A DNA stretch of 20,000 nucleotides. It comes from an uncultured virus (IMG/VR IMGVR_UViG_3300045902_000133). Taxonomy: Duplodnaviria > Heunggongvirae > Uroviricota > Caudoviricetes. The stretch's first letter is position 1; each line of letters begins with the position of its first letter. The notes under the pieces are model-generated. The model saw only the letters and a list, made by a program, of their open reading frames with translations, had not been told where the DNA came from and ran no database searches. The stretch lies in IMG/VR virus record IMGVR_UViG_3300045902_000133, one strand, 5' to 3'. The position numbers and the translations under genes are program-made. This document shows positions 5,327 to 13,132 of this stretch, in pieces.

Positions 5327-5439
5327 ATCGGCCCCACTAGATTTTCTAGTGGGGTCGAGGCGGTGTGTAACGACCGTGTAACAGACGGTTTTGACCCCTT
5401 CCATTCTGTCGAGAATGGGGGTATGTTCATACCATACGA
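5327..5439 (+). repeat. ~113-bp regulatory cassette copy 1 (hairpin + TGTAAC box + promoter) upstream of rIIA
   Basis: Hairpin 5328-5358; TGTAAC at 5366 and 5377; TTCCAT 5399-5404, 17 nt, TATGTT 5422-5427; near-identical to 7629-7741. Confidence 0.9.
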
Positions 5440-7628: not shown

Positions 7629-7741
7629 ATCGGCCCCACTAGATTTTTCGGTGGGGCCGATGGCGGCGTGTAACGACCGTGTAACAGACGGTTTTGACCC
7701 CTTCCATTCTGCCGAGAATGGGGTATGTTCATACTATACGA
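7629..7741 (+). repeat. ~113-bp regulatory cassette copy 2 between rIIA and rIIB
   Basis: Near-identical to 5327-5439; TGTAAC at 7669 and 7680; TTCCAT, 16 nt, TATGTT. Confidence 0.9.
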
Positions 7742-7850: not shown

Positions 7851-8960
7851 ATGACTGCAACGAACGCTGTTCCTCCGATGATCGTCACCGACACCGGCAT
7901 TACCATCTTTATTGATGGTCAGGTGTTGGTTGCGCCGAACGATCATCCTAACTTCCAGGCCGTCAAGGATGCCATCGCTGCGTCCGATTTCGACAAGATT
8001 CCGGCACTGCTCGATGTTCGCAGCGCGGTCAACCGTTATGTCGGTTCCGTGAACGCTCCTGGTTTCACGATGATCGGTGACTTCCTCGCGCTGGATGGTA
8101 AGCCGTTCACCTTTGAAGTGACTGAAAAGGTGCTCAACATGATTGCCGAGGGTCAGCCCGCCGAACCGATTTACAACTTCCTGCGCAAGGTTCGCCAGAA
8201 CCCGCGAGTTGCTGCACAGGACGAACTCTTGCTGTTCTGCGTCGCCAACAACTTCATGATCCACGCTGATGGTGATATCATCGCCTACAAGAGCGTGCGT
8301 GGAGACTACAAGGACATTCACTCCGGCACCATCCTCAACACGGTTGGTAGCGTGGTCCAGATGCCGCGTCAGGCGGTTGACGATGATCGCGACCGCACGT
8401 GCTCGACGGGTCTGCATTTCGCCAGTTACGAATATGCGAGCACGTGGGCTGGCACGATTGATGGGGTGAACCTTCGCCTTGTCGTGATGAAGATCAATCC
8501 CGCCGATGTTGTCGCCATCCCGAGCGATTACAACAATCAGAAGGGTCGCACGTGGCGTTACGAGATCATCGCGGAAATCACGGGTCGGGGTGGCCCGCTG
8601 CCGAAGCGTGAGGTGTATACCAACAGCGATCTCGGCGTGACGAACAGCACGGATGTTAGTGAGAGTCGTTGGTCGGAGAGTGAAATCCAGCGCAAGAACG
8701 AAGTGCTCAAGGGTTGGCTCGAACGCCAGTCGGAAGTAGACCGTGAGATTGAGTCGATGCAGTCCGACCTCGATGACCTTTACGACCGCATCGCGAGGAT
8801 CAACGATCTCGGCGGTGATGCGCCGGCGCTCGAGGATGAGGCCAACGACATGGAGAACGAGATCGGAGAACTCGCCGAGGAAAGTGGTCGCCTCGCAGAC
8901 AAGATCGCTCGCATCGAGAATGAGATTCGCGATCTCGGCGGCGTTCCGGTCACGGCGTAA
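7851..8960 (+). CDS. rIIB: RIIB-like protein with acidic coiled-coil C-terminal extension
   Basis: DGDIIAYKSV, MPRQAVDDDRDRTCSTGLH and KINPADVVAIPSDYNNQKGR motifs; GAGGA RBS. Confidence 0.9.
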   Translation: MTATNAVPPMIVTDTGITIFIDGQVLVAPNDHPNFQAVKDAIAASDFDKIPALLDVRSAVNRYVGSVNAPGFTMIGDFLALDGKPFTFEVTEKVLNMIAEGQPAEPIYNFLRKVRQNPRVAAQDELLLFCVANNFMIHADGDIIAYKSVRGDYKDIHSGTILNTVGSVVQMPRQAVDDDRDRTCSTGLHFASYEYASTWAGTIDGVNLRLVVMKINPADVVAIPSDYNNQKGRTWRYEIIAEITGRGGPLPKREVYTNSDLGVTNSTDVSESRWSESEIQRKNEVLKGWLERQSEVDREIESMQSDLDDLYDRIARINDLGGDAPALEDEANDMENEIGELAEESGRLADKIARIENEIRDLGGVPVTA

Positions 8961-9224: not shown

Positions 9225-9518
9225 ATGACCGCAAAGGCTGCAAAGACCGTGAAGGCTCCGTCGGCCAAGGCGATGGCTCGCAAGCGCACGGTGCAGGAGC
9301 GTAAGTCGATTACCGCGCAGATCCGCTCGGCCGAGAAGATCGCCCGTTCTTTCGAGAAGGCGCGTGAGACTCTGACTGCCGAGGTGGCGAAGCTCAACGG
9401 CGATATCAAGACTCAGCTCGAGCAGGTTCTCGCACAGCTCGGCGTGGCCGCAACCATCGTCGATGCCGAGGTCGAGTCGCAGGCGGTTGCACTGGCTCGG
9501 ACGTTCGTGAAGCGATAA
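9225..9518 (+). CDS. basic Ala/Lys-rich coiled-coil protein (97 aa)
   Basis: ATG at 9225 after AGAGGA; K/A-rich N-terminus. Confidence 0.8.
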   Translation: MTAKAAKTVKAPSAKAMARKRTVQERKSITAQIRSAEKIARSFEKARETLTAEVAKLNGDIKTQLEQVLAQLGVAATIVDAEVESQAVALARTFVKR

Positions 9519-9529
9519 TCGCGTTCGTA

Positions 9530-9633
9530 ATCAACTGTCGCCACAGACGGATGGATAATCCGAAGTAGCCTAAAGGCACGGTCGTTAGACCGCCGGGGAG
9601 TGTGACGGACAGGAACCCATCCCTTCAGTTGAT
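9530..9633 (+). ncRNA. candidate structured RNA (multi-hairpin junction), family unknown
   Basis: Closed by ATCAACTG/CAGTTGAT; internal hairpins CGGAT/ATCCG, GCC/GGC and CGGTC/GACCG. Confidence 0.45.
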
Positions 9634-9638
9634 ACACC

Positions 9639-9669
9639 TCCAGGTCGTGTCGCGGTGGCACGACCTGGA
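9639..9669 (+). terminator. 13-bp GC-rich hairpin, possible terminator
   Basis: TCCAGGTCGTGTC-GCGGT-GGCACGACCTGGA; weak U-tract. Confidence 0.5.
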
Positions 9670-9684
9670 ATCGTTTGCCCGACA

Positions 9685-9701
9685 TGTAACATCCGTGTAA
9701 C
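9685..9701 (+). promoter_or_regulatory. TGTAAC-N5-TGTAAC box without an obvious promoter at the usual spacing
   Basis: Exact box; no -35/-10 pair 15 nt downstream. Confidence 0.65.
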
Positions 9702-9924
9702 AACCTTCGTTGACCCATAAGCACCTGCTCAGCGACCTGAATGATCTTTCGCCGCCGAGCGATGATCCGTGGAACGAATAACTGGGGTTGCGCCCGCAGC
9801 CCCCTCCACAAACACCAGTCAAAATGGTCACTCGCATTAACTTGCTGTCGGATCTGCCATATCAGGAAGCTGAAGATATGCCGATCTGCTGCTCGCCGGC
9901 GTCCGAAACATATTGGAGCATATA

Positions 9925-10323
9925 GTGCGCAAGACTTTCCTTGTCGTGTTCGGCGTGGATCTCGCCACCAAGCAACTCGCAACTTGGTGGTTGCCATCAT
10001 TCGTAGTATACAACACCGAGATAAGCAAGGTCGGTTTGAGCAACATCGGACATATCGTGTTGACCGTAATGCTCTGCTGGTTTTTTTGGGAGCTTGGTCA
10101 GCGACAGGACATTGCCAATATCAAGCCCTATGCTGCTACAGCGGTCGCTGGATCATTAGCTAATTTGGTGAGCTATGTATCAGATCCACCGGGTGTGCTT
10201 GATTTCATTCCCGTGCCTGGCATTGGCATTGCCAATTTCGCCGATTTTGCAATATGGGTCGGCACAATCGGTGTGGTCTATGTTGTTGCAAGACAAGCAC
10301 TTACGCTACACGCCGGCGTGTAA
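9925..10323 (+). CDS. lspA: divergent lipoprotein signal peptidase II (LspA-like)
   Basis: GTG after GGAG; DLATK (DxxTK), AGSLANL (GxxGN-like), GVLDF and ANFAD carry both catalytic-position Asp residues; four hydrophobic segments. Confidence 0.75.
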   Translation: MRKTFLVVFGVDLATKQLATWWLPSFVVYNTEISKVGLSNIGHIVLTVMLCWFFWELGQRQDIANIKPYAATAVAGSLANLVSYVSDPPGVLDFIPVPGIGIANFADFAIWVGTIGVVYVVARQALTLHAGV

Positions 10324-10379
10324 CGACCGTGTAACATGGGATTTGGGGGCTTGTGGTTTAGTCGCCTCTGGTGTATTAT
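10319..10379 (+). promoter_or_regulatory. TGTAAC box + promoter at the start of the RNA cluster
   Basis: TGTAAC at 10319 (supplies the lspA stop codon) and 10330; TTGTGG 10351-10356, 17 nt, TATTAT 10374-10379. Confidence 0.8.
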
Positions 10380-10464
10380 TTATTTAGAGTAAATGATGAA
10401 CGGTGGTCACCAACCGAAATGGTGACGGACTCTTGACCAGGTATCAAGAGCGGCACCCGTGGTC

Positions 10465-10520
10465 CGTAACAAAAGTGTTACAAAAGTAAGCTTGACCTGA
10501 GACACCGAATGGGTTATCTT
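10465..10520 (+). promoter_or_regulatory. second promoter of the RNA cluster with variant box
   Basis: CGTAAC-N5-TGTTAC 10465-10481; TTGACC 10492-10497, 17 nt, TATCTT 10515-10520. Confidence 0.7.
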
Positions 10521-10605
10521 ACTAACGTTGATTGACAAACGAAACGAGTGTCCTGCCACCGACCGTCGGGACTAATGACGGCTCTCGCGTCCGTCGCTCG
10601 TTTAT

Positions 10606-10677
10606 GGCGCTATCGTCTAGTGGCTAGGACATGAGACTTTCAATCTCAGAACACGGGTTCGACTCCCGTTAGCGTCA
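10606..10677 (+). tRNA. tRNA-Glu(UUC), CCA not encoded
   Basis: Acceptor GGCGCTA/TAGCGTC; anticodon arm TGAGA-CT-TTC-AA-TCTCA; T arm ACGGG-TTCGACT-CCCGT. Confidence 0.95.
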
Positions 10678-10682
10678 CCTAT

Positions 10683-10746
10683 GGTCGATGGGTATGGATG
10701 GGTCATTCGTGGGTCATCCGGACGAGTTCGAGTCTCGTTACGACCA
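10683..10746 (+). ncRNA. tRNA-like RNA lacking a D arm
   Basis: Canonical T arm ACGAG-TTCGAGT-CTCGT; acceptor-like GGTCG/CGACC; single GGATG/CATCC stem in place of the D and anticodon arms. Confidence 0.6.
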
Positions 10747-10910
10747 ATTCGATAAAGAGCTCGGCATCTCTGAAAACTGCCTATAAGAGAATGGCGCTGA
10801 TACTCTTTAATAAACTGCGCAAGTGGCTACCAGTGTGAACGGTGTTGGCGCACTAAGCACGCTCGGTAGAAGCGACCGATTTTGTATAGCGCCAAATATA
10901 CATTATCGGA

Positions 10911-10979
10911 TATCACATGGTCTAACGGATAGGACGGCCCCTGGGGGGGCAGATATGGGTTCGAGTCCCATTGTGATTA
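10911..10979 (+). ncRNA. tRNA-like RNA (Glu/Gln-type body) with 4-nt anticodon loop
   Basis: ATCACA/TGTGAT acceptor; D arm GTC-TAACGGATAG-GAC; GCCCC-TGGG-GGGGC; T arm ATGGG-TTCGAGT-CCCAT. Confidence 0.75.
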
Positions 10980-10983
10980 TAGC

Positions 10984-11037
10984 GGACATAGGAATTACCC
11001 GTCGGATGATCCGACGCAGCCGATCTCGGCGATGTTT
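10984..11037 (+). ncRNA. GGAATTACCC three-way-junction motif, copy A
   Basis: GGACAT/ATGTTT closing stem; GGAATTACCC; GTCGGA/TCCGAC; GCA; GCCG/CGGC. Confidence 0.6.
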
Positions 11038-11051
11038 GACAATCGTTGTGT

Positions 11052-11207
11052 GTGATGCCTGGCCGCCCCAAGGAGGGGTCTGTGATCAGAAACCTGCCAG
11101 TTTCTGGTCACACAGGTTGAGCAGTGGCAGCTGCAATTAGCCATTAACATAAGGCAAAAATCCGGGAAACATCTGAATAGGCGAAACCCGGACATCACCA
11201 CTATTCA
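11052..11207 (+). ncRNA. candidate ~155-nt RNA with kissing loops and pseudoknot
   Basis: GTGATG/CATCAC closure; loops CTGCCA (11094-11099) and TGGCAG (11125-11130) are complementary; TGAATAG (11174-11180) pairs with CTATTCA (11201-11207). Confidence 0.6.
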
Positions 11208-11247
11208 TCCTTAGATCAGAGGTCGAGAAATTCTCGGGGTGATTTAC

Positions 11248-11320
11248 GCTTCGATAGCTCAATTGGCAGAGCAGCTGACTTTTAATCAGTAGGTTACAGG
11301 TTCGACTCCTGTTCGAAGCA
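11248..11320 (+). tRNA. tRNA-Lys(UUU), CCA not encoded
   Basis: Acceptor GCTTCGA/TCGAAGC; D arm GCTC/GAGC; GCTGA-CT-TTT-AA-TCAGT; T arm ACAGG-TTCGACT-CCTGT. Confidence 0.95.
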
Positions 11321-11374
11321 CTAAAGGCTGGAATTACCCGCTGGGTTCATACAGTGCAGCCGAATGGCGGTTAG
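11321..11374 (+). ncRNA. GGAATTACCC three-way-junction motif, copy B
   Basis: GGAATTACCC 11330-11339; GCTG/CAGT; GCA; GCC/GGC; same layout as copy A with different stem sequences. Confidence 0.6.
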
Positions 11375-11464
11375 ATAATCTCCTGTCCTTGCATAAAACT
11401 AACAACGCCAGTAAAGGTCGCTCGATGACAATACTCTAGCGGCCCGTTTGTCATTGGACCGGTA

Positions 11465-11525
11465 TGTAACATCCGTGTAACAACAGCCTAAACCCCTTGT
11501 ATTCAAACTGGTTTGGGTGTATTAT
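11465..11525 (+). promoter_or_regulatory. TGTAAC box + promoter
   Basis: TGTAAC at 11465 and 11476; TTGTAT 11497-11502, 17 nt, TATTAT 11520-11525. Confidence 0.85.
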
Positions 11526-11531
11526 TCCACT

Positions 11532-11786
11532 GTGATAAAGATGATGACATCAAAGCTCATCGTCGTTTCAAGCAACTTCGCCGTGAGGGCAAGTAACATG
11601 GCAGACCATACATTCTGGCGTTCGTGGAACATCATCGGCACCGATCTCAACGGTCGCAAGTGTCCGATTCGGCAGGTCACCATTCCTGCGAGTTACAACA
11701 CCGTGGAAGCGGCATTGCGCTACATCCAGCGCACCGTAAGTGCCACGGTATCTGAAATCGAGGCTGTCCATGATTACCAGCGCTAA
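11532..11786 (+). CDS. hypothetical protein
   Basis: In-frame GTG 6 nt after the -10 box; alternative ATG at 11598. Confidence 0.6.
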   Translation: MIKMMTSKLIVVSSNFAVRASNMADHTFWRSWNIIGTDLNGRKCPIRQVTIPASYNTVEAALRYIQRTVSATVSEIEAVHDYQR

Positions 11787-12075
11787 CCTTGAGACGTGTC
11801 AGTTTGTTTCGGCCAATGCGATCTATCGTGATGTGATCGAGCACTTTGGAATGCTCGGTGAAAGTGCCGACGATTTTCTGGACAGTATCACGGATCAAGC
11901 GCCGTGGACTTGGGGCGACACGAACCGTGTAATGGTGGGCAACAACGAGTTTGTGGAGTTTCTCATCAATCGGCTTGAGGATCTGGATTACAACGATTCC
12001 GAGATTGACGTTTACTGCGCGAACCTGCTCGATTTTCTGGTAACGCAGTGCGCCTACGTGGACATCGCTAACTAA
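11770..12075 (+). CDS. hypothetical protein, TWGDxNR family (paralog of 2755..3009)
   Basis: ATG at 11770 after GAGG; WTWGDTNR motif and C-terminal AYVDIAN. Confidence 0.8.
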   Translation: MITSANLETCQFVSANAIYRDVIEHFGMLGESADDFLDSITDQAPWTWGDTNRVMVGNNEFVEFLINRLEDLDYNDSEIDVYCANLLDFLVTQCAYVDIAN

Positions 12076-12088
12076 CTACGGAGCAAAT

Positions 12089-12466
12089 ATGGGCAAGCTG
12101 ACTCCCAAGTGGTTTGAGTTCCGCCAGAACAACCCTGGCGGTAGGCTCGTGTTCAACGATTCCGTTGGCAACTACGTCTACATTCAGGCGTTCACCGCCG
12201 CCGAAGCAAATAGCAAGGCCGAAGACATCGGCGTGTATTTCGACGGCGTGGCCAAGGGCTATGACTGCGAATGTTGTGGCGACCGCTGGTGTTCCGTGTG
12301 GGACCGCTGCGAAGGTTCGGTAGATATGCCCAAGCAGTATGTTTGGAATCGTGGTCAGGTGGACTACGAGCTGTGCGATACCGCTCCTCGTAATAGCGAG
12401 TATGCGGTGTTCTACCATATCGACGGACGCCGTGAATATGGCGTGTCGATGGAGTCGGAAAACTAA
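12089..12466 (+). CDS. conserved phage protein with QNNxGG and DCxCCGDRW motifs
   Basis: GGAG RBS; motifs recognised from phage hypothetical proteins. Confidence 0.8.
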   Translation: MGKLTPKWFEFRQNNPGGRLVFNDSVGNYVYIQAFTAAEANSKAEDIGVYFDGVAKGYDCECCGDRWCSVWDRCEGSVDMPKQYVWNRGQVDYELCDTAPRNSEYAVFYHIDGRREYGVSMESEN

Positions 12467-12478
12467 TCCCCTCAAATA

Positions 12479-12507
12479 GAAAAAGGGCGAGAAATCGCTC
12501 TTTTTTC
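12479..12507 (+). terminator. intrinsic terminator
   Basis: GAAAAAGGGCGA-GAAA-TCGCTCTTTTTTC. Confidence 0.85.
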
Positions 12508-13036: not shown

Positions 13037-13132
13037 ATCGGCACTAGATTTTTCGGTGGGGCCGAACCGGTTTGTAACGACCGTGTAACAGACCGCATTG
13101 CCCTTGACAACCGCGCCCTTGCGGGTTATTAT
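13037..13132 (+). promoter_or_regulatory. partial third copy of the rIIA-flanking cassette joined to a different promoter
   Basis: ATCGGC-ACTAGATTTTTCGGTGGGGCCGA (3-nt deletion relative to 7629); TGTAAC at 13073 and 13084; TTGACA 13104-13109, 17 nt, TATTAT 13127-13132. Confidence 0.85.

What the first reader, a model, noticed from the sequence alone, without database searches (positions are those of the whole stretch)
10984..11374. GGAATTACCC three-way-junction motif placed just 3' of two tRNA ends
Seen: two copies (10984-11037, 11321-11374) share the layout closing stem, GGAATTACCC, hairpin, GCA, GCC hairpin, G, closing stem. The joining nucleotides are identical while the stems differ yet still pair (GTCGGA/TCCGAC versus GCTG/CAGT). 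The decamer starts 11 nt after the tRNA-like RNA and 9 nt after tRNA-Lys, neither of which encodes CCA. Known: theta ribozymes occupy this position and release tRNA 3' trailers, but this motif does not show the HDV double-pseudoknot layout. Inference: a new tRNA-trailer ribozyme or a processing/protein-binding signal.
Basis: partly seen in the sequence, partly recalled or inferred. Interest (0 to 1): 0.8.

Follow-up and report, generated by a model that had tools for sequence, protein, structure and literature searches.

The report
Orphan repeated spacer behind phage tRNAs
Two look-alike stretches of about 52 bases sit just behind two transfer-RNA genes of an uncultured hot-spring phage; they are real repeats, but nothing supports a self-cutting RNA, and they are more likely an ordinary spacer or processing signal found only in this phage.

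Summary
The repeat is real. Copies c1 (10991-11044) and c2 (11330-11380) align from GGAATTACCCG to AATC (score 28; 0 of 500 shuffles reach it). Each starts 9-11 nt after a CCA-less tRNA. The three-way junction holds only for c1. In c2 it lies 6.4 kcal/mol above the MFE, and the closing stem is not conserved. The "tRNA-like RNA" is a tRNA-Phe(GAA) gene missing 3 nt of its anticodon loop; one strain variant has it intact. Strain variants carry a c1 whose 5' half is c2-like, which weakens its hairpin. One also changes the decamer. No Rfam family matches and no HDV-like fold is possible in c2. There is no third copy behind the other 45 tRNAs of the 105-kb contig. I found no homologue in viral, metagenome, genome or isolate-phage collections. 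My best reading (0.35) is a lineage-specific, non-catalytic trailer or boundary module: a single-stranded decamer that fits the RNase E motif, followed by two small hairpins. A neutral, gene-converted spacer is nearly as likely. The ribozyme reading is at about 0.05. The spacer between the copies is strongly structured, which is a separate lead.

The parts
10991..11044 (+). Copy c1 of the repeated trailer element: decamer, P2, GCA, P3, tail ending in AATC
   Evidence: Local alignment. CM R1 scores 85.3 bits.
11330..11380 (+). Copy c2 of the repeated trailer element
   Evidence: Local alignment. CM R1 scores 71.2 bits.
10991..11000 (+). Decamer GGAATTACCC of c1. It is predicted single-stranded in the local fold and contains GA|AUU, which fits the RNase E core motif RN|WUU.
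   Evidence: motif from PMC5222698. Strain X8 has C>T at 10999.
11330..11339 (+). Decamer GGAATTACCC of c2
   Evidence: Unchanged in the strain variants; the base before it (11329) is T>C.
11001..11015 (+). P2 hairpin of c1 (GUCGGA/UCCGAC, loop UGA)
   Evidence: -6.8 kcal/mol alone. In strains X8 and X10 four changes (insertion after 11001; 11003, 11006, 11008) cut it to -2.1.
11340..11355 (+). P2 hairpin of c2 (GCUG/CAGU, 8-nt loop)
   Evidence: -3.2 kcal/mol alone. Two pairs differ from c1 on both sides.
11019..11030 (+). P3 hairpin of c1 (GCCG/CGGC)
   Evidence: -5.0 kcal/mol.
11359..11368 (+). P3 hairpin of c2 (GCC/GGC)
   Evidence: -2.6 kcal/mol. The strain variants insert a T in its loop after 11364.
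   Evidence: ARAGORN calls it tRNA-???. Rfam tRNA scores 45.3 bits. With strain X10's changes (10919, 10941, +AAA after 10944) ARAGORN calls tRNA-Phe gaa.
11248..11320 (+). tRNA-Lys(UUU), no encoded CCA
11237..11245 (+). GGGUGAUUU in the tRNA-Lys leader. It can form 9 pairs with either decamer (2 of them G-U).
   Evidence: A complement of this length arises by chance in 167 of 2000 shuffles of the operon.
11048..11201 (+). Strongly structured multi-branch domain in the spacer between c1 and tRNA-Lys
   Evidence: z = -3.91, with 0 of 200 shuffles as stable. The predicted pair 11063-11154 changes from C-G to U-A in strains X8 and X10.
10313..10380 (+). Promoter-like repeat (tandem TGTAAC boxes, then GGTGTATTATT) upstream of the tRNA operon
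11459..11526 (+). The same promoter-like repeat 1146 nt downstream, marking the end of the non-coding tRNA unit

Best explanation
c1 and c2 are two paralogous copies of a lineage-specific, non-catalytic module in the 3' external spacer of a phage pre-tRNA transcript.

The roughly 1.1-kb unit between two promoter-like repeats is read as one non-coding RNA: tRNA-Glu, a decayed tRNA, tRNA-Phe (broken in this strain), c1, a structured spacer, tRNA-Lys, c2.

In each module the conserved part is a single-stranded decamer placed 9-11 nt behind a CCA-less tRNA and followed by two small hairpins. I infer that a host endonuclease of the RNase E type cuts inside the decamer (GGA|AUU), 12-14 nt behind the tRNA. 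That would leave a short trailer to be trimmed by exonucleases before CCA addition. The hairpins would cap the 5' end of the downstream RNA.

Shown: the repeat, its position, the hairpin potential, and the absence of any ribozyme signature. Inferred: transcription as one unit, the cut, the enzyme, and any benefit to the phage.
For: - The repeat is beyond chance: 0 of 500 shuffles reach its alignment score.
- Both copies sit at nearly the same offset behind two unrelated tRNAs that lack CCA.
- The region is non-coding and bracketed by a promoter-like repeat that occurs 6 times on the + strand of the window (0 of 200 shuffles give 7 or more of the 7 one-mismatch hits on both strands).
- P2 keeps hairpin potential with different sequence in the two copies, with 2 pairs changed on both sides.
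- P3 is present in both copies, and the one strain difference in c2 is an insertion in the P3 loop.
- The decamer contains GA|AUU, which fits the RN|WUU core. The same paper places the RNase E cut that frees the E. coli leuZ 3'ETS 15 nt behind the tRNA (PMC5222698, passages read).
- No covariance model of any ribozyme or other family matches.
Against: - Only 2 of 47 tRNAs in the contig carry the module, so the phage does not need it for tRNA maturation in general.
- No homologue exists in any collection searched, so there is no evolutionary evidence of constraint.
- Between strains c1 is more variable than its flanks: 4-5 events in 54 nt, against about 2.5% in the neighbouring spacers. Its hairpin is weakened and the decamer changes in X8.
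- The hairpins of c2 are marginal (-3.2 and -2.6 kcal/mol at 37 C), and the source samples are labelled hot-spring or microbial-mat metagenomes.
- RN|WUU is a loose motif, about 1 in 64 positions by my arithmetic.
- The host, and whether it has RNase E, are unknown.
Confidence: 0.35

Rival explanations
1. Neutral repeated spacer. The two copies are leftovers of a local duplication or recombination in a decaying, redundant tRNA island. Gene conversion keeps them similar, and they have no function of their own.
For: - Only two copies exist, and only in this lineage.
- The island duplicates tRNA species already present in the main array (Glu-ttc, Phe-gaa, Lys-ttt).
- The island holds decayed tRNAs: a broken tRNA-Phe and a pseudo-tRNA that ARAGORN calls only at a relaxed threshold.
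- In strains X8 and X10 the 5' half of c1 is c2-like (25 of 31 aligned positions, against 22 of 33 for the reference c1). That is a mosaic best explained by conversion between the copies.
- There is no common fold, and the decamer is mutated in X8.
Against: - The same offset behind two unrelated tRNAs is not expected from a simple duplication, since the tRNAs themselves are not paralogous (alignments).
- 23-24 identical bases persist while the hairpin between them has diverged yet still pairs.
Confidence: 0.3
2. 5' domain or seed of processed small RNAs. c1 is the 5' end of a stable RNA of about 255 nt. That RNA would be released between tRNA-Phe and tRNA-Lys, with RNase P forming its 3' end. 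c2 heads a shorter one. The conserved single-stranded decamer would then act by base pairing.
For: - The stretch 10980-11247 folds far better than shuffles: z = -4.19, with 1 of 200 as stable. The spacer alone gives z = -3.91, with 0 of 200.
- One predicted pair changes C-G to U-A between strains.
- The decamer can pair 9 bp with the tRNA-Lys leader and so close the domain.
- tRNA-spacer-derived regulatory RNAs are known, such as the leuZ 3'ETS (PMC5222698 passages).
Against: - The decamer-leader complement is not beyond chance: 167 of 2000 shuffles.
- In the variant strain the predicted closing helix uses other bases, and the helix holding the double change drops out of the MFE.
- The stretch after c2 is not structured: z = 0.18.
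- No target is known.
Confidence: 0.15
3. DNA-level element: a miniature insertion or attachment-site repeat that targets the 3' flank of tRNA genes, so that c1 and c2 bracket an inserted segment (spacer plus tRNA-Lys, 339 bp).
For: - The direct repeats flank a tRNA-bearing segment.
- Earlier notes of this scan describe tiny insert-like hairpin units behind tRNA genes in other genomes. These are unchecked leads.
Against: - There are no terminal inverted repeats or target-site duplications on inspection of the ends.
- Only two copies exist among 47 tRNA flanks.
- Both strain variants carry both copies, so there is no presence/absence polymorphism.
- No recombinase gene was recognised among the 16 window ORFs scanned against Pfam.
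Confidence: 0.08
4. A new class of small self-cleaving ribozyme that frees the tRNA 3' trailer.
For: - Its position just behind CCA-less tRNAs is the place occupied by theta ribozymes (PMC10879173 passages).
- The joining nucleotides are identical between the two copies.
- The c1 fold is a compact junction.
Against: - The junction is not shared by c2.
- There is no family-wide conservation, because there is no family.
- The 'core' varies between strains: 10999 C>T in X8, and a rebuilt and weakened P2.
- Theta ribozymes cut within 5 nt of the tRNA, whereas the conserved part here starts 9-11 nt away.
- No known ribozyme model matches even at E up to 10.
- No HDV-like P1 is possible in c2: 0 candidates.
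Confidence: 0.05
5. Worn-down tRNA genes. Each copy would be the relic of a tRNA that once followed its neighbour at the usual short spacing of a tRNA array.
For: - The offset of 9-11 nt equals typical inter-tRNA spacings in this phage's array.
- c1 folds into a small four-arm shape.
- The decamer occurs in the D-loop/D-stem of a tRNA-Gly in two unrelated viral contigs.
- ARAGORN's very permissive mitochondrial mode puts calls on both copies.
Against: - The Rfam tRNA model gives nothing on either copy at E up to 10.
- ARAGORN's bacterial mode gives nothing on the + strand even at 70% threshold.
- The mitochondrial mode makes 16 calls in 1.1 kb, so it is not discriminating.
- There is no T-loop or D-loop signature in the expected arms.
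Confidence: 0.05

Closest known systems
Theta ribozymes (minimal HDV-like ribozymes next to phage tRNA genes; PMC10879173)
   Same: Both lie directly 3' of phage tRNA genes, where trailer removal is needed.
   Different: - Theta ribozymes have the HDV nested double-pseudoknot with a catalytic C in J4/2 and sit within 5 nt of the tRNA (passages).
- Here no HDV-like P1 can form in c2.
- No Rfam ribozyme model matches.
- The conserved part starts 9-11 nt from the tRNA.
RNase E-processed tRNA 3' external transcribed spacers, e.g. the E. coli/Salmonella leuZ 3'ETS (PMC5222698 passages)
   Same: - A single-stranded A/U-containing site about 12-15 nt behind a tRNA, fitting RN|WUU.
- Downstream structured RNA that would carry the new 5' end.
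   Different: - No sequence relation.
- Cleavage is not shown here.
- The host and its nucleases are unknown.
- This is a phage element present in two copies.
RtT repeats behind the E. coli tyrT genes
   Same: Repeated, hairpin-capable units of unknown role in the spacer behind tRNA genes.
   Different: - No Rfam hit to that family.
- RtT units are tandem and, as recalled, end in a copy of the tRNA 3' end. That is not the case here.
Stable small RNAs encoded inside the phage T4 tRNA cluster (species 1 and 2 RNAs; recalled, no call)
   Same: Non-tRNA structured RNA co-transcribed with phage tRNAs and presumably released by the tRNA-processing enzymes.
   Different: Only the structured spacer 11048-11201 resembles this idea. 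No sequence comparison was made.

Membership tests
Theta / HDV-like ribozymes | Nested double pseudoknot: P1 starting at the cleavage site, plus P2, P3, P1.1 and P4 | tested here: not met
   A script searched for a 6-7 bp P1 whose 5' strand starts within -6 to +15 nt of the tRNA end. It found 0 candidates for c2 and 13 for c1; 8 of those lack an adjacent 3-bp P3 and none is shared with c2. No HDV-type Rfam model matches at E up to 10.
Theta / HDV-like ribozymes | Cleavage site within about 5 nt of the tRNA end | tested here: not met
   The conserved element starts 9-11 nt after the tRNA ends. The criterion comes from PMC10879173 passages.
Theta / HDV-like ribozymes | Mg2+-dependent self-cleavage abolished by mutating the catalytic C to U | not testable with these tools
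   Needs in vitro transcription.
Other known self-cleaving ribozymes in Rfam (hammerhead, twister, twister-sister, pistol, hatchet, hairpin) | Match to the family covariance model | tested here: not met
   cmscan of 10500-11700 and of each copy alone, at E up to 10, gave no ribozyme family. The only hit on a copy was FinP at 13.4 bits, E = 1.2.
tRNA / tRNA-like element | Cloverleaf with T-loop and D-loop signature recognised by tRNA models | tested here: not met
   The Rfam tRNA model gives no hit on c1 or c2. ARAGORN's bacterial mode down to a 70% threshold makes no + strand call on them.
RNase E-cut tRNA 3' spacer (3'ETS type) | RN|WUU core in a single-stranded stretch a few to about 15 nt behind the tRNA | tested here: met
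   GGA|AUU is in both decamers, 12-14 nt behind the tRNA ends, and is unpaired in the c1 MFE apart from a 2-bp GG/CC clip. Motif. The motif is loose, so this is weak support.
RNase E-cut tRNA 3' spacer (3'ETS type) | An RNA 5' end at that site that depends on the nuclease | not testable with these tools
   No RNA run holding this stretch was listed.
Intrinsic terminator | G+C-rich hairpin followed by a T run | tested here: not met
   The scan of 10200-11800 found one terminator-like site, at 10863-10879, and none in c1 or c2.

The most novel reading that the evidence does not exclude
The decamer-plus-two-hairpin module is a new kind of tRNA-trailer release signal, either self-cleaving or recruiting a nuclease. 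It would free CCA-less phage tRNAs and, at c1, also create the 5' end of a new structured phage RNA of about 255 nt that is punctuated by tRNAs.
Probability: 0.07. Interest if true: 0.7.

Novelty: new member of a known kind. Interest (0 to 1): 0.25.

Why it matters
If the module really directs trailer removal, it would show another way, besides theta ribozymes, for large tRNA-rich phages to mature tRNAs whose CCA is not encoded. As it stands, it is a two-copy orphan sequence in one uncultured phage lineage, so it matters little. The more useful by-products are:
- the strongly structured spacer RNA between the copies;
- the polymorphic tRNA-Phe, intact in one strain and anticodon-loop-deleted in two;
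- a clear repeated promoter or operator motif that delimits transcription units in this phage.

Tried and rejected
**Homologue and family searches that found nothing**
- Rfam at gathering and at E up to 10, on the region and on each copy.
- CM R1, built from the two copies, found no third copy in window plus contig (130,488 bases). The best other hit was 10.6 bits, E = 3.1. With filters off on 9500-12500 there was only a weak partial look-alike at 11122-11162, E = 0.4.
- Pattern scans:
  - decamer + GCAGCC + GGC in viral contigs: 19 loci, 0 with a tRNA or the hairpins;
  - T-arm + decamer: 6 loci. In 2 the decamer lies inside a tRNA-Gly, and 4 are unrelated;
  - metagenomes: 66 loci, 0 tRNAs;
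  - genomes: 65 loci, 0 tRNAs;
  - 3'-half pattern: 0;
  - tRNA-Lys 3' half: 0.
- blastn against isolate phages: only tRNA-level or chance hits.

**Relatives by protein**
- DUF7296 protein: 1 locus, with no tRNA and no motif.
- 751-aa protein: none.
- SbcCD-like protein: one contig at 98% identity that cannot reach the island.
- Promoter-motif scan: 8 single hits, consistent with chance.

**Other negative checks**
- Sigma-70 promoter or intrinsic terminator inside the copies: none.
- HDV-like threading: rejected.
- Leader-trailer pairing as a shared feature: found only for the tRNA-Lys leader, and not beyond chance.
- Sequencing runs: no RNA holder was listed, so expression and RNA ends could not be examined.
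- Literature: full-text search for the decamer gave 39 papers. The 10 listed are on unrelated topics by title, and the other 29 were not seen. A search for phage tRNA-trailer motifs gave nothing relevant among the 10 titles listed.
- Earlier notes of this scan had nothing for this genome or sequence.

Full report
**Setting**

The window matches a 105,488-base IMG/VR virus record (G001), estimated 48% complete. Runs that hold the stretch are labelled hot-spring or microbial-mat metagenomes.

The record carries 47 tRNA genes by ARAGORN. Forty-four lie in one array that also holds a tmRNA. Three lie in a separate island about 17 kb away, inside this window:
- tRNA-Glu(ttc), 10606-10679;
- an odd tRNA, 10911-10979;
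- tRNA-Lys(ttt), 11248-11321.

All three anticodons are already present in the main array. Almost none of the 47 genes encodes CCA.

The island lies in about 1.1 kb without a credible ORF. It is bracketed by a promoter-like repeat: tandem TGTAAC boxes and, about 35-45 nt later, GGTGTATTATT, at 10313-10380 and 11459-11526. The core CCGTGTAACA occurs 6 times exactly on the + strand of the window (7 hits on both strands at up to one mismatch); 0 of 200 shuffles reach 7. I therefore treat 10390-11460 as one non-coding transcription unit. That is an inference.

**The observation**

GGAATTACCC occurs exactly twice. The best local alignment of the two trailers runs from GGAATTACCCG to AATC, covering 10991-11044 and 11330-11380. 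It scores 28, against a shuffle mean of 16.1, sd 2.1 and maximum 26; 0 of 500 reach it. It does not extend into the 9-11 nt that link each copy to its tRNA.

Between the identical blocks there is a hairpin-capable stretch, P2, whose sequence differs. Two pairs are changed on both sides. A second hairpin, P3, is nearly identical in sequence. With only two sequences the shuffle control cannot show significance (124 of 500).

The three-way junction is the MFE only for c1 (-18.6 vs -20.8 kcal/mol). For c2 it is -7.1 vs -13.5 at 37 C and -0.3 at 60 C. Neither copy alone folds better than shuffles: z = -1.5 and -0.4.

**Strain variants**

Contigs of two runs (X8, X10) cover the operon with 21-22 substitutions and 10-13 gap positions over 947 bases. 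I rebuilt them in scripts from that table.

1. In X10 the odd tRNA gains AAA after 10944, plus changes at 10941 and 10919. ARAGORN then calls tRNA-Phe(gaa).
2. In both variants c1 differs in a cluster from 10984 to 11008: 2 deletions, 1 insertion and 5 substitutions. This makes its linker and the 5' half of P2 c2-like (25 of 31 aligned positions, against 22 of 33 for the reference). The 3' half stays c1. It is a mosaic best explained by gene conversion between the copies. It lowers P2 from -6.8 to -2.1 kcal/mol and removes the 7-bp closing stem.
3. X8 also has C>T at 10999, inside the decamer.
4. c2 differs only by T>C at 11329 and a T inserted in the P3 loop.

c1 therefore changes more than its flanks, and its helices are not protected. 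RNAalifold finds no common structure over the five forms.

**Known families**

No Rfam family matches at gathering score or at E up to 10. This holds for the region and for each copy alone, which gives the most permissive filters.

An explicit search for an HDV-type P1 near the tRNA end gives 0 candidates in c2. Theta ribozymes sit within 5 nt of the tRNA and depend on a catalytic C in J4/2 (PMC10879173, passages). The conserved part here starts 9-11 nt away.

tRNA models and relaxed ARAGORN do not recognise the copies. Only the indiscriminate mitochondrial mode does, and it makes 16 calls in 1.1 kb. There is no terminator or sigma-70 promoter in the copies.

**Homologues**

A covariance model of the two copies finds no third copy in the contig.

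Exact-pattern scans gave only hits without tRNAs or hairpins, in numbers I estimate by hand to be roughly those expected by chance:
- viral contigs;
- metagenomes;
- one genome per prokaryote species.

blastn against 50,697 isolate phage records found nothing. Protein-based searches found no relative that carries the island.

Two limits apply. Pattern scans need exact matches, and the tools may withhold records close to this genome.

**What it most likely is**

Three observations point to RNA-level use tied to the tRNA 3' end:
- the constant offset behind two unrelated CCA-less tRNAs;
- a conserved, unpaired, partly A/U decamer;
- two following hairpins.

The decamer contains GA|AUU, which fits RN|WUU. 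The RNase E cut that frees the leuZ 3'ETS lies 15 nt behind that tRNA (PMC5222698, passages). Here the cut would fall 12-14 nt behind. I therefore favour a non-catalytic trailer or boundary module, at 0.35.

The neutral, gene-converted spacer reading is nearly as good, at 0.30. It is supported by the rarity of the element (2 of 47 tRNAs), the lack of any family, the decay of the island and the strain data. A ribozyme is unlikely, at 0.05.

**A lead outside the finding**

The spacer between c1 and tRNA-Lys is strongly structured: z = -3.91 for 11045-11236 (0 of 200) and z = -4.19 for 10980-11247.

Two of its five strain differences, 11063 C>T and 11154 G>A, fall on one predicted pair and keep it as U-A. 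However, that 3-bp helix drops out of the variant's MFE.

In the reference fold the c1 decamer pairs 9 bp with GGGUGAUUU just upstream of tRNA-Lys, and the c2 decamer could do the same. A complement of that length arises in 167 of 2000 shuffles, so I do not lean on it.

Noticed in passing
window 11045-11236 (core 11048-11201): The spacer between c1 and tRNA-Lys folds into a multi-branch structure far more stable than shuffles (z = -3.91, 0 of 200). It includes a perfect 13-bp hairpin at 11081-11112. Two strain differences (11063 C>T, 11154 G>A) hit one predicted pair and keep it. No Rfam match. This is a candidate phage non-coding RNA.
   Followed up: partly
window 10911-10979: tRNA-Phe(GAA) is polymorphic. 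The reference and strain X8 lack 3 nt of the anticodon loop, and ARAGORN cannot name the gene. Strain X10 has AAA plus two substitutions and gives a normal tRNA-Phe.
   Followed up: yes
window 10683-10748: Directly behind tRNA-Glu lies a decayed tRNA-like sequence with a good T arm (ACGAGTTCGAGTCTCGT) and a 5-bp acceptor stem. It also holds an 11-nt tandem duplication (10699-10720). ARAGORN calls it only at an 80% threshold.
   Followed up: partly
window 5344-5383, 7647-7686, 9663-9702, 10297-10336, 11443-11482, 13051-13090 (+ strand): A repeated intergenic motif: two TGTAAC boxes one helical turn apart (…TGTAACRWCCGTGTAACA), followed about 35-45 nt later by an A/T-rich -10-like box. It is probably a phage-specific promoter or operator. 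A scan of viral contigs found only 8 single hits.
   Followed up: partly
G001 44.5-59.2 kb (L027, L028): The main array holds 44 tRNAs plus a tmRNA (tag ANPALALAA). It includes a tRNA with anticodon CUA, an amber suppressor that ARAGORN labels 'Pyl', which raises the question of TAG recoding. Two tRNA trailers there read into ORFs with C-x-x-C…H motifs that, from memory, look like HNH endonucleases.
   Followed up: no
window 11070-11121: AAGGAGG sits in a hairpin loop, followed 6 nt later by GTG and a 12-codon ORF that lies inside the 13-bp hairpin. This is either a possible tiny leader ORF or chance.
   Followed up: no
window 8627-8940 (ORF 7851-8960): CGATCTCGGCG, which is also the 3' part of c1's P3, recurs at 126-nt spacing inside a 369-aa ORF. 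That indicates 42-aa tandem repeats in the protein. It is probably unrelated to the motif.
   Followed up: no
L032 and L034 (two related viral contigs): The decamer lies 14 nt behind a T-arm/acceptor-like end (…GGTTCGATTCCC…TCCA) that ARAGORN does not call as a tRNA. The sequence after the decamer does not resemble c1 or c2.
   Followed up: partly
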